NCBI GenBank assembly: GCA_964016885.1
Contig: OZ024762.1
Coordinates: forward strand, 26,722,001 to 26,786,000
DNA: 64,000 bases
From: Eledone cirrhosa
Taxonomy: Eukaryota
Direction: 5' to 3'
Below, in pieces: positions 5,896 to 58,660 of this stretch; the first letter of the stretch is position 1; each line of letters opens with the position of its first letter. Below the pieces are notes generated by a model. The model did no database searches. It was not told the DNA's origin and saw nothing but the letters and a program-made list of their open reading frames with translations. The position numbers and the translations under genes were made by a program.

Positions 5896-6027
5896 AAAAA
5901 ATCCTGGTGTATTTATTGATATTGGATTCTAAAAACAAAAATGCAATCTATATGAAAGTGAGGCTGGAGAAGGAAAAAGGAAAGGAAAAAGAAAATAAAA
6001 TCACACATGCAAACACTGACAAAGGAA

Positions 6028-6068
6028 CGCTGTACTAGTTTCAAACTTATTAGCTATCGTCAGCAACG
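6028..6068 (-). ncRNA. Minimal type I hammerhead
   Basis: Minus strand: cgttg-CTGACGA-tagctaataagttt-GAAA-ctag-TA-cagcg. Confidence 0.8.
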
Positions 6069-6203
6069 TATACCTTCCTGCCAGATGGTTGAACGACTGA
6101 AACTCGTTGAACTCACTCGATATGCAAATTGGGCTGCTCAGCCGTTAATATGCATAAAGAAAGTATATACTTCAGACGTTCAGTCATCTGGTAGGAAGGT
6201 ATA

Positions 6204-6244
6204 CGTTGCTGACGATAGCTAATAAGCTTGAAACTAGTACAGCG
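6204..6244 (+). ncRNA. Minimal type I hammerhead
   Basis: cgttg-CTGACGA-tagct-aata-agctt-GAAA-ctag-TA-cagcg. Confidence 0.88.
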
Positions 6245-6789
6245 TTCCTTTGTCAGTGTTGAACAAATGAGCAACGTTGGTTGCTAGACACTGTACGGAT
6301 TAATTCGGGTTGTTTGTTTACAAACACACCGAGCATTATAATAAATGTTCCGTGAATCCATACGTACATATATATATATGTGTGCATGTATGTATATATA
6401 TGTACATACTACTGTACGTCTGTATACATATATGTATGTACGTATACATACTTATATTTAAGTTACCGCCGTACTAAGAGTGAGAAATCAAATTTCGTTT
6501 CATTTTTTCCGTTTATCGTTTTCGGTGCGTCCGGCCGGTTAACTCACTCGATATGCAAATTGGGCTGCTCAGCCGTTAATATGCATATGGAAAGTATATA
6601 CTTTCAGACGTTCAACCATGTATATATATATATACATACTACTGTACGTCTGTATACATATATGTATGTATGAATACATACTTATATATATATATATAGA
6701 TATATAGATATATATATATGTATATGTATATGTGTGTGTGTATGTGTGTGTGTGTATGTATATATTTATATGTATGTATGTGTATGTGT

Positions 6790-7145
6790 TTTGCTTACCA
6801 CGTGTGTTTGTTTATTTATTTGTGTCCTTTCCTGTATTGCTGTCAACTTTATAATAATTTTTATTTTCTAAAGTCCTATATTTTTTTTATGTGCCGGCAT
6901 TATATGTTTGTTGATTGTTTTTTATTTTTTCTTATAATTAATTGTGTGTATGCATATATTTATATGTATGTACGTGTATGTGTATTGCTTACCACGTGTG
7001 TTTGTTTATTTATTTGTGTCCTTTCCTGTATCGCTGTCAAATTTATAATAATTTTTATTTTCTAAAGTCGTATATTTTTTTATGTGCCGGCATTATATGT
7101 TTGTTCATTGTTTTTTTATTTTTAATTATAATTAATTGTGTGTGT
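6790..7145. repeat. Tandem duplication of about 190 bp
   Basis: ttgcttaccacgtgtgtttgtttatttatttgtgtcctttcctgtat... occurs twice (about 6791 and 6985). Confidence 0.75.
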
Positions 7146-7604
7146 GCTTATGTAGGTGTGTGTATATAATTCTATATATGTGTGTGCGTATGTATGCGTG
7201 TATATATGTGTGTATGTATGTACGTGTGTATATATATATGTGTATGTTTGTATATATATATATATATATATATATATATATATATATATATATATATATA
7301 TATATATATATATATATATGTATATATATATATATATATATATATAAATGTAAGTATGCATGTATACGTACATACATATATGTATACAGACGTACAGTAG
7401 CATGCACATATATATATATATATATATATATACATATGTATATACATATGCATACAGGTACACATACATATATGCACGTATCAGTTTAGCGGCGCTTATT
7501 ATAACGTCGCTTTGTTCGTTTGTAAACAAACTGAACAGCCTGAATTTATGCCATACGGTGTTAAGGCAACCACGTCACCTTTTTGTTCAACACTGACACA
7601 GGAA

Positions 7605-7645
7605 CGATGTACTAGTTTCAAGCTTGTTAGCTATCATCAGCACCG
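7605..7645 (-). ncRNA. Minimal type I hammerhead, array monomer 1
   Basis: Minus strand: cggtg-CTGATGA-tagct-aaca-agctt-GAAA-ctag-TA-catcg. Confidence 0.9.
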
Positions 7646-54496: not shown

Positions 54497-54620
54497 TAAT
54501 TGTTTCTACTTTTGTCACAAGGCCAGAAATTATCCGAGTGTATTACAGGTACTTTATTTAATCGACCCCGTAAGGATGAAAGGAAAAGTTAACCTCGGCG
54601 GGATTTGAACTCAGTCCGTA
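54497..54620 (-). mobile_element. SINE, 5'-truncated, nested in the Naiad 3' UTR
   Basis: B box and central domain are present. Confidence 0.8.
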
Positions 54621-54705
54621 AATGTTATATATTTATACTTAATTTTAAATACAGTCTATTTTCCTATAATATTATTAAAGGTCTGATTAGATTGTTATCT
54701 ATCCA

Positions 54706-55114
54706 CAACTGGTCCGTTTCTTCCGATATCATTTCGGACGAAGGATCAGGATGCAGAGAGAGGTACTGCACCCCAGCCGTTTCTATGAAAGATGGGTGAA
54801 AGTGGCGGGAATGGCCCGTGTGAATGGGCCTTCACTCTACATCAGACTGTAGGTGAGAAAGATGAAAGATCAAGAGAGCACCCTCTCTCTGTGCTCCTGA
54901 GATAGGTTGCACACTTTTTTAGGGGGTGGGTGCAACACCCCAAGGCGCCTCTTCCCTATTGAGGATTTTGTTATTCAATTTATTTTTGTTATATTTTATA
55001 TTTCATATTTTTATATTTTGTTATTGCCTCCTCCTTAATGAGGACGCCTTTTAAACTCCCCCCCCCATTATACTTGTCCCACTCTTTGATGCCCTGGTGG
55101 CAAATAAAAAGAAA
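54706..55114 (+). mobile_element. Tx1/L1-like LINE 3' fragment with 12-bp TSD
   Basis: TSD gttatctatcca at 54694-54705 and 55115-55126. C-terminal peptide QLVRFFRYHFGRRIRMQREVLHPSRFYERWVKVA..., then AATAAA and an A-rich tail. Confidence 0.75.
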
Positions 55115-57129
55115 GTTATCTATCCATTACTGGACAAGATATAAGTTATGGAAAAATGTATAGCTGTTTACATGTCCAAATAGTTATATCATTTGTGTAA
55201 TAATATACATTATTGTGTTAAAAGTTAATCCTTTATATACAATGCTATTAATTTCAATATTTAATTATGAATGTATATATAATTTTATTATCATTATATT
55301 GTGTTAAAAGTAAATCCCTTATATACAATGCTATTAATTTCAATATTTAATTATAAATGTATATATAATTTATTATTACATATTACATTAAATGTCTCTA
55401 CATATTATATATCCATTACTGTATATAATATAATTAAGTTATAGTAGTTATATTAAAAGGTGGTAACTTTATGTTTATTTCTAATAGTTATTGTAGAGTA
55501 TAAGGTTAGAGATAAATAGGAGTTATGTAGAGGAAAGAGCTGATCAAAGAGTGTATTGCGGTGGGGGTTGATAAGTCCTGGAGGTGAAGTGTTAATGGTG
55601 GTGAGGAATTCAAACCTGACATTGCTATATACTAGCAGCTAGGTTTAAAGTTATGGAACGAGTATCGGTAATGGTGCTGGCATGAGGAAAATACCTCTGA
55701 TTTTCTAATTAGGAGGTCTAGTTTCGAAAAGATTATAGTATGGGTCTCTAGAAGACAGAGGTTACACAATTTATTCGTTGGTTTATACGATGTGGCCCTA
55801 CCTACTACTTCCCATTTAAGTGTAAATGGTCTATTCCTAGGTTTCAGAGAGTGTACGTAGCTAGATAAAGAAGTGGAGTTGGCTACATTGTGTTTTTTGA
55901 AAGAGTGGAGGGGCGAGTTGTATCTCGTCTTGAAGCAGTTCGAATTAGAGCCAATATAAGTTTTAGAAGAGTTGTTCGCGTTGACCGTGCGTGAGTAAAT
56001 GATGTCTTTGATTAAGCAATTATTACCTAAGGGCAAGTTCTATTAGTTCTACAGATACATTTATTCTGGATGTTTGCTTGCCGGTTACTATGTTGTGTAG
56101 AAGTCTGGTTGATAGGGATAGCATTAGGTTAATGATGGTTGTCATTCCTATTGTTATTGATTTCATTAGTATGTACCATTATTACTATGGACTCATTCTT
56201 TCTCAATGCTTCTTTCTCAATGCCTCTTTAATTATTAGACTATTGCATTGTATTATCTGTCGTATGTATTCCACTCTGAGCTTTTAATTTGAATTTGAAT
56301 TTTTGTACAATTCTCGTATAAAAGATGTCGCATTCATTACACCCTGTAAATACGAAACTGTTGCTCACAACATCAATATATATGTATCTATATGATTGTT
56401 CAGTTGAATAGGAGGTTAATTATATGTACAGACATTGATAATGGTCCCTTGACACCAAGCTAAAGTTTGGAAGAAACGATTGTCAGCAATTAAATGATTT
56501 GAACATAACTTTGTTAATTAGTGTAATCTATATTTATATATATAATATATATATATAATACATATATAACATATAAGATATATATTTATATATATATATA
56601 TATAACATATAATATATATATATATATATATATGTATAACATATATATATATATATATATAACATATATATACATATTATTGTATAACATATATATATAA
56701 ATGTATTATATATATATACATATAACATATATATATATAACATATATATATATATATAACACACATATATATATATAACATATATATATATATATAACAC
56801 ATATATATATATAACATATATATATATATATAACATATATATATATATATATATATATATATATATATATAACATATGTATATATAACATATATATATAT
56901 ATAACATATATATATATAATATATATATATATATATAACACATATATATATATAATATATATGTATATATAACATATATATATAATATAATATAATATAT
57001 ATATATATAATATATATATATATATATATATATATAAATATATGTATAACATATATATATATATATATATATATATATATATATATCTATATATATATAT
57101 ATATATATATATATATATATATATATATA

Positions 57130-57500
57130 CAATATTAAATAAATGGAAACTATATTTATAAAACCATATTTATTTCATTATATATATTTCGGGGATATCA
57201 TATTAACAATATGCTATGCCTTCCTCAGACAAAATACAATATAAACAGTTTTATAGATAAATAGATTCGACATACCGTTATAACACCGACTTCCATTTGA
57301 CGAGGTTTAAACTGGCAGTCTTATCATATTGTTAATATGATATCCCCGAAATATATATAATGAAATAAATATGGTTTTATAAATATAGTTTCCATTTATT
57401 TAATATTGTAAATATACTCCAAATATTTGTCGAGTGCTTTTATATCAGTTATAAATATTTACTAGTTGTAACCCAACAATTTTAAATATAACTTTCCATA
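57130..57500. mobile_element. Fold-back PLE pLTR remnant in (TA)n
   Basis: About 85-bp inverted arms (57129-57213 / 57326-57410). A second, smaller fold-back of the same family lies at 57660-57940. Confidence 0.8.
57171..57236 (-). ncRNA. Type I hammerhead
   Basis: Minus strand: tattttgt-CTGAGGA-aggcatagcatatt-gtt-aatatgatatcccc-GAAA-tatata-TA-atgaaata. Confidence 0.78.
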
Positions 57501-58221
57501 TATATATATATATATATATATATATATATATATATATATATATATATATATATATATATATATATATATATATAACACATATATATAATATATATGTATA
57601 TATAACATATATATATAATATATATATAACATATATATAATCATATATATATATAACATACAATATATTAACAAATGGAACTATATTTATAAAACCATAT
57701 TTATTTCAGTATACATATTTCAAGGGCCACCGGAGCAAACACTTGAAATATGTATACTGTATACTCTTGAAATATGTATATGTATACTCTTGAAATATGT
57801 ATACTGAAATAAATATGGTTTTATAAATATAGTTCCGTTTGTTAATATATTGTATATTTACTCCAATAATTTGTTGAGTGCTTTATATCAGTCATAAAAA
57901 TATTTTGCTTGTTGTATCCCAACAAATTAAATATAACCTCTACATATATATAACATATAGATATAACATATATATATATAACATAAATATATATATAACA
58001 TATATATATATATAACATATATATATATAACATATATATATATATAACATATATATTTACATATATATAACATATAATATGTATATATATATATAACATA
58101 TAATATATATATATATAACATAATATATATATAACATATAATATATATATATATAACATATATATATATATATATATATATATATATATATATATATAAT
58201 TTATATATATATATATATATA

Positions 58222-58660
58222 TAAACGGAAAAAAATGAAACGAAAATTAATTTCCCACTCTTAGTACGGCTGTTACTTAAATATAAGTATGTACACGTAC
58301 GATCATATATGTATACAGACATACAGTAGTATGTATATATATATACATACATGCACACATATATATATGCACACATATACATGCACACATATATATATGC
58401 ACACACATATATATATATGACGACAGCTAATAAGCTTGAAACTAGTACAGCGTTCCTCTGTCAGTGTTGAACAAACGAGCAACGATGGTTGCTGGACACT
58501 ACGGCTTAATACGGGATGTTTGTTTACAAACACACCGAGCAATATACTAGATGTTCGGTGAATCCATACGTACATATATATATGTGTGCATGTATGTATA
58601 TATATATACATACTACTGTACGTCTGTATACATATATGTATGTACGTGTACATACTTATA
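58222..58660. mobile_element. Retrozyme-like family fold-back copy
   Basis: Minus arm 58222-58410. The plus arm starts inside the HHR core (TGACGA at 58418). Confidence 0.78.

What the first reader, a model, noticed from the sequence alone, without database searches (positions are those of the whole stretch)
6010..58660. Dispersed subfamily of the same element shows stem I covariation and circularly permuted ends
Seen: copies at 6010-6690, 16068-17190 and 58222-58660, plus a stub at 62399. They are clearly diverged from the array but keep the HHR. Stem I is CGUUG/CAGCG versus CGGUG/CAUCG in the array, so a U-G pair becomes G-U. The other differences fall at free position 7 (C vs U) and in the stem II loop (AAUA vs AACA). 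The copy at about 6110-6620 runs past one full unit and repeats its start, and copies begin and end at different points of the unit. Inference: the ribozyme is under selection, and the mobilised template is circular or multimeric.
Basis: partly seen in the sequence, partly recalled or inferred. Interest (0 to 1): 0.72.

Follow-up and report, generated by a model that had tools for sequence, protein, structure and literature searches.

The report
Two-armed hammerhead retrozyme, Penelope-type ends
These are copies of an abundant non-coding repeat carrying a hammerhead-ribozyme motif, inserted as back-to-back arms whose outer ends fall at two fixed sites, likely because a Penelope-type jumping-gene enzyme copied an uncut, probably circular, RNA from both sides of a DNA break.

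Summary
The element is real: a 420-500 nt unit with a minimal type I hammerhead, with 24,749 exact core matches genome-wide. It is a metazoan non-LTR retrozyme. The stem I swap is present, but the two-subfamily contrast alone is not significant (4/43 vs 65/386 differences, p=0.27). Across nine subfamilies, core and stems II/III never change (0/24 vs 74/305, p=0.004). The pair went A-U, G-U, U-G, likely via a copied U-U state. Copies are head-to-head inverted arms in (TA)n (58 head-to-head junctions, 0 tail-to-tail). Their sense 3' ends sit at two fixed sites about 55-60 nt apart (145 of 171 arms), one site per arm in 39 of 39 classifiable pairs. This is the Penelope 'tail' signature. Arms run through the cleavage site (32 of 34), so the template was circular or uncut multimer. 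Both subfamilies form arrays, and the 58.2-kb copy lacks an intact ribozyme. The scan reported this before on other DNA of this genome (e1-8665316). Cleavage, circular RNA and the partner enzyme are unshown.

The parts
6012..6102 (-). left (minus) arm of locus 1, lineage B; outer end truncated about 20 nt past the cleavage site; core at 6063-6033 with one stem II C>U change
6110..6690 (+). right arm of locus 1: 1.18 units (6110-6619), then an internal deletion, then the P1 end joined to (TA)n
6203..6245 (+). type I hammerhead motif: stem I, CUGACGA, U-U-closed stem II, GAAA, one-pair stem III capped by CUAG; predicted cut between 6239 and 6240
7345..9549 (-). array, lineage A: minus arm of 4.63 units with five cores, 3' end at P1 into (TA)n
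9548..9979 (+). plus arm of the array, 0.92 unit, core 9637-9667, 3' end at P2 into (TA)n
16067..16810 (-). minus arm of locus 2, 3' end at P2, core 16369-16339; interrupted at 16432-16679 by a later insertion flanked by a 38-bp duplication
16787..17193 (+). plus arm of locus 2, core 16943-16973, 3' end at P1; overlaps the minus arm by about 24 bp at the junction
58221..58402 (-). minus arm of locus 3, 3' end at P2, no ribozyme
58418..58664 (+). plus arm of locus 3, starts inside the hammerhead core (incomplete), 3' end at P1
62397..62422 (-). 26-nt stub ending at P2 inside (TA)n

Best explanation
This is a non-coding hammerhead repeat (non-LTR retrozyme) inserted in (TA)n tracts as head-to-head arms ending at two fixed sites, likely copied by a Penelope-like retrotransposon's enzyme from an RNA that was uncut at the ribozyme, most likely a circle. 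Steps: (1) copies longer than one unit are transcribed (inferred). (2) The hammerhead, probably as a dimer through its ACUAGU palindrome, releases monomers that are ligated to circles (inferred from PMC7229834; not tested). (3) A Penelope-type RT/GIY-YIG protein cuts both strands of a (TA)n tract, and each DNA end primes cDNA, one at P1 and one at P2 (footprint shown; enzyme inferred). (4) Each RT runs a variable distance, often past the cleavage site and beyond one unit (shown), and the two cDNAs are joined head to head (shown). (5) Variants that reach all units of a new locus seldom break the RNA fold (shown statistically). Some arrays later grow by DNA duplication (shown for L117).
For: (104 position-sampled loci, 181 arms; ends counted on 171 arms at 80% identity or more and not cut by a locus edge): 3' ends at P1 62, P2 83, other 26 (about 11% expected in these zones by chance); 127 of 145 are followed by (TA)n. 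Adjacent arms: 58 head-to-head, 5 same-strand, 0 tail-to-tail. 39 of 39 pairs with both ends classified are P1+P2 (19 of 19 in loci not picked by the tail); in 19 further pairs an end was unclassified or at an edge; 32 of 34 arms (tail-picked loci) and 98 of 102 (all) that reach the cleavage site run past it; circular fold z about -10; broken pairs well below the null (9 vs about 20, 14 vs about 24; p<=0.006) and 4 and 6 double changes (p 0.035, 0.003); core plus stems II/III 0/24 variable vs 74/305; 7 doubly changed pairs of 91; variants fixed in all units of a locus break pairs in 7 of 37, singletons in 349 of 738 (p=6e-4); the partner arm has no closer rival in 20 of 52 pairs and shares rare alleles in 19 of 52 (background 2%). 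L130 has 7+1 rounds with 3 singletons. PMC11167929 shows a PLE protein cutting and extending both strands, with two internal RT start sites that define the tail. Young RT/GIY-YIG elements with open frames of 830 aa or more exist in this genome.
Against: No sequence similarity to the loci of the two autonomous PLE families examined, apart from separate retrozyme insertions beside them, so no partner is identified. The tail (about 55-60 nt) is longer than the usual 30-40. There is no mutation scar at the presumed ligation junction. 17 of 52 arm pairs differ at 2 or more lineage sites, some from alignment noise, so not all loci fit one template. Arrays with shared or period-2 variants (97 shared vs 657 singleton; L117) show DNA-level amplification. 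The hammerhead fold is not unusually stable alone (z -0.01 to 0.8). The locus-fixed vs singleton test on the core alone is not significant (0/40 vs 37/556, p=0.16). In PMC11167929 unprocessed linear RNA is the main substrate and cleavage is dispensable in vitro.
Confidence: 0.68

Rival explanations
1. Same Penelope-type enzyme, but the template is an uncut linear multimer read from existing arrays; circles are a by-product or absent.
For: It also explains read-through of the cleavage site. [quoted passage not shown] The minimal stem III predicts weak monomer cleavage (PMC7229834 section 15). Some arm pairs differ.
Against: It does not readily explain the invariant core across nine subfamilies. 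There are no recurrent inversion junctions among 58 and no 5' end hot spot apart from a pile-up at the internal microsatellite. Private variants are fixed in all 8-11 units of both arms of L130 and L091.
Confidence: 0.24
2. A LINE copies cleaved linear monomers, and the inversions come from L1-type twin priming.
For: Head-to-head geometry and short AT overlaps at the junctions; LINE RT relics lie in the window.
Against: Arms overlap in unit coordinates and both can exceed one unit; there is no stop at the cleavage site (4 of 102); ends are internal and fixed, with no poly(A) tail; the P1+P2 rule is strict.
Confidence: 0.03
3. A DNA satellite spread by recombination or DNA rolling-circle copying, with a decaying ribozyme relic.
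For: Period-2 arrays; Pif1-type helicase relic in the window.
Against: Strand-specific structural filter on propagated variants (18:5 vs 186:217, p=0.004), compensatory pairs, fixed 3' ends in (TA)n.
Confidence: 0.05

Closest known systems
Metazoan non-LTR retrozymes (Cervera and de la Pena 2020, PMC7229834: abstract and sections 14, 15, 17 read; Li, Clavereau, Pollet 2026, 10.64898/2026.07.22.740005: parts 1-3 of 5 read)
   Same: Non-coding tandem units with one type I hammerhead each, a highly paired predicted circle, tens of thousands of copies. One-pair stem III with a palindromic tetraloop as in axolotl HHR_Amex1; U-U at the base of stem II as in HHR_Amex2.
   Different: Unit of 420-500 nt (170-400 in the 2020 paper; 51-972 in the preprint); both axolotl features in one ribozyme. 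The sections read propose PLE mobilisation and show pLTR homology in Xenopus, but describe no inverted arms or fixed start sites.
EN+ Penelope-like elements and their pLTR/tail (PMC11167929: parts 1-2 of 4 read; PMC8557442 and PMC3846280: passages read)
   Same: Head-to-head inverted 5'-truncated copy, tail at one end only, two internal RT start sites, AT-rich or (TA)n targets, hammerhead upstream of the ends.
   Different: No ORF; both arms can be multi-unit; tail about 55-60 nt; 1-4 nt of AT overlap at both sites; no homology to the two autonomous families tested.
Non-autonomous Chlamys elements such as MRC1 (passage in PMC8557442)
   Same: Non-autonomous PLE derivatives with multicopy head-to-tail insertions.
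   Different: That clade lacks canonical hammerheads, and those elements resemble their autonomous partner at the 3' end.

Membership tests
Type I hammerhead ribozyme | Core CUGANGA...GAAA...NUH with stem I open | tested here: met
   (12 core positions invariant; core numbering recalled)
Type I hammerhead ribozyme | Stems I, II, III formable | tested here: met
   stem I 6 bp, stem II 4 bp plus U-U, stem III minimal; ACUAGU self-duplex -6.8 kcal/mol
Type I hammerhead ribozyme | Match to an Rfam hammerhead model | tested here: not met
   0 hits at gathering score; E-value mode not run
Type I hammerhead ribozyme | Self-cleavage | not testable with these tools
   needs in vitro transcription
Metazoan non-LTR retrozyme | Tandem non-coding units, one hammerhead each | tested here: met
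   115 cut-to-cut monomers; frames of 120 aa or more over the copies are only low-complexity (TA)n read-throughs
Metazoan non-LTR retrozyme | Highly self-paired monomer | tested here: met
   68-70% paired, z -10.4 and -9.6 (the internal AT tract contributes)
Metazoan non-LTR retrozyme | Expressed as circular RNA | not testable with these tools
   needs RNA from the animal
Non-autonomous EN+ PLE | Head-to-head inverted 5'-truncated copy | tested here: met
   58 of 63 adjacent arm pairs
Non-autonomous EN+ PLE | Tail at only one end (two RT start sites) | tested here: met
   39 of 39 classifiable pairs
Non-autonomous EN+ PLE | AT-rich or (TA)n target | tested here: met
   127 of 145 P1/P2 ends
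Non-autonomous EN+ PLE | Homology to the pLTR of an autonomous PLE | tested here: inconclusive
   none in 30 + 20 loci of two families; other families not examined

The most novel reading that the evidence does not exclude
A Penelope RT dimer holds one circular ribozyme RNA at two fixed sites, one per subunit, and rolls round it from both ends of a double-strand break. The genome then records rolling-circle retrotransposition directly, and its nine subfamilies record how the circle's fold evolved pair by pair, including a copied U-U intermediate.
Probability: 0.4. Interest if true: 0.72.

Novelty: new member of a known kind. Interest (0 to 1): 0.5.

Why it matters
The retrozyme class and its proposed PLE driver are published, but in the papers read the mobilisation step is a proposal. 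Here the insertions carry the Penelope two-start-site footprint under a strict one-site-per-arm rule and read through the ribozyme. That names the RNA positions to mutate in an in vitro assay and makes the circle-as-template question testable. The subfamily series is also a natural covariation data set for a 430-nt RNA fold.

Tried and rejected
Rfam gathering scan: 0 hits. Ribozyme conservation from two consensuses: not significant. Ligation-junction scar: C1.1>U in 14 of 127 lineage A units but 1 of 187 in B, so rejected as general. A-to-I editing signal: A>G 9 vs U>C 3 distinct fixed variants, p=0.15; combined strand asymmetry p=0.06; inconclusive. Dimer-circle reading of L117: the fifth unit departs from the first at 2 sites, which fits DNA duplication. 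Partner search in two PLE families: no homology. Expression: no RNA holder listed; the possible RNA run X1 laid 0 contigs, and X5 and X7 laid 13 and 10 contigs showing mostly the variants also read in X2; none of this bears on expression or host range. The G-G state was not counted genome-wide. Literature searches found no description of this family or of fixed two-site ends in a retrozyme. One dimer-cleavage paper was not held. Supplements of PMC7229834 and PMC8557442 and repeat libraries were not seen and may list this family.

Full report
Observation. All four places hold copies of one element, 74-81% identical to the 466-bp array over the long matches. The motif is a type I hammerhead: stem I, CUGANGA, a U-U-closed AGCU/AGCU stem II, GAAA, and a one-pair stem III capped by CUAG, with the predicted cut after GUA. 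Rfam misses it at gathering score. The 58418 arm begins inside the core and is not an intact ribozyme.

Family. The window lies in a 3.0-Gb animal genome. The 31-nt core has 24,749 exact matches (control 0) and a looser pattern 28,493 (control 4). 115 cut-to-cut monomers fall into lineages A (about 470 nt) and B (about 430 nt), 19.5% apart. Both occur as solos and as arrays, so 'dispersed subfamily versus array' holds only inside this window. Clustering 178 of 242 arms (those with 200 or more usable columns) gave 11 clusters. I dropped two singletons, merged two and split one, which left nine subfamilies.

Covariation. Between the A and B consensus the 43-nt ribozyme differs at 4 sites against 65 of 386 elsewhere (p=0.27), and 119 of 473 windows are as conserved. 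Across nine subfamilies it is 4/43 against 74/305 (p=0.03), and the core plus stems II/III are 0/24 (p=0.004). Runs near P1 and in the tail are also invariant, and longer. Part of the sample was chosen on an intact core or on similarity, which favours conservation. At the stem I pair, 248 copies show G-U 105, U-G 119, A-U 13, other standard pairs 4 and mismatches 7. A tree built without these two columns puts the A-U groups between two ladders; G-U appears on both, and U-G only at the tip of B (midpoint root, so direction is inferred). On the C7/AAUA core the genome holds U-G 4,370, A-U 1,723, G-U 975 and U-U 146. About 30 U-U are expected from the singleton rates (my arithmetic), and 5 of 12 U-U loci have backbones between the G-U and U-G groups. 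U-U was therefore likely copied for a time. Selection covers the whole fold: circular z about -10, compensatory changes outside the ribozyme, and variants fixed in all units of a locus break pairs in 7 of 37 cases against 349 of 738 singletons. The structure was predicted from these same sequences, which favours such counts; the singleton comparison controls for this in part.

Ends. I mapped 181 arms in 104 loci taken by position on contig C1, picked either by the core or by a tail motif. Of 171 scorable 3' ends, 62 lie at P1 (about 215-255 nt after the cut, at a small hairpin) and 83 at P2, about 55-60 nt further on; 127 of these 145 run into (TA)n. 5' ends are spread round the unit, and 5 of 173 lie within 10 nt of the cut. 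Adjacent arms are head-to-head 58 times and never tail-to-tail; all 39 classifiable pairs combine P1 with P2. The array and loci 2 and 3 in the window follow the rule, and locus 1 has lost its left end. Arms pass the cleavage site in 32 of 34 cases in tail-picked loci. The two arms usually share a source: no closer arm in 20 of 52 pairs, shared rare alleles in 19 of 52, but 2 or more lineage differences in 17.

Mechanism. PMC11167929 (parts 1-2 read) shows a Penelope protein cutting and extending both strands at AT-rich DNA, with two internal start sites that define the tail. PMC8557442 and PMC3846280 (passages) describe head-to-head copies with a tail at one end and (TA)n targets. The footprint here matches, so a PLE enzyme is the likely driver; I put this at about 0.9. 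Cleaved linear monomers are excluded as the main template. A circle best reconciles an invariant ribozyme with read-through of its cut site, but uncut multimers remain possible, and some arrays grew at the DNA level. Two young autonomous RT/GIY-YIG families exist. One ends in (TA)n about 240 nt after its own hammerhead (13 of 20 loci at one site, a few about 55-65 nt further). Neither shares sequence with the element.

Novelty. It is a new member of the non-LTR retrozymes (PMC7229834; preprint 10.64898/2026.07.22.740005). Six searches found no report of this family or of fixed two-site ends in a retrozyme; supplements and repeat libraries were not seen. The scan's notes already give the same reading for a 422-nt unit of this genome with ends 59 bases apart (e1-8665316) and for 310-nt families. 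I reached the reading before opening them; they are not independent support. Note e1-8803865 favours cut units and editing scars in a 467-nt repeat: my data show read-through and an inconclusive editing signal, and I did not check whether it is the same family.

Verdict. Real, under structural selection, PLE-type insertion, template uncut and probably circular. Interest 0.5.

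Noticed in passing
window 1001, 1985(-), 5093, 10972, 15744(-)/15810(+), 26693, 28794(-), 29582, 34035(-), 36299, 46440, 57228(-): At least five other hammerhead-like motif families, most near PLE relics or (TA)n; 15744/15810 is itself a head-to-head pair.
   Followed up: partly
window 12049-13425(+), 28996-36189(-), 42841-45943(-), 55632-56039(-): Broken RT and GIY-YIG frames of Penelope-like elements; two families are young and abundant genome-wide, with long open frames and opposed pairs.
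   Followed up: partly
window 16432-16679: (TA)n plus about 120 bp of another repeat (85% like 19915-20108) inside the minus arm, flanked by a 38-bp duplication.
   Followed up: partly
window 7345-9979: A 6-nt hairpin-tip deletion and one substitution occur in all four combinations among the array units, suggesting conversion, template switching or assembly mixing.
   Followed up: partly
window 62465-62533: Two repeats of a roughly 20-nt piece that looks like a P2 end fused to a P1 end inside (TA)n.
   Followed up: no
L117; G000:C1:49584284-49588112 and 51775040-51793012: Arrays with two-unit periodicity, the last spanning about 18 kb.
   Followed up: partly
window 49888-51979(-): Pif1-type helicase frame, probably a Helitron relic (the label is inference).
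   Followed up: no
window 59225-61885(-), 63421-63918(+): LINE-like reverse transcriptase relics.
   Followed up: no
window 14983-15228: Perfect (TTTTAT)41 tract.
   Followed up: no
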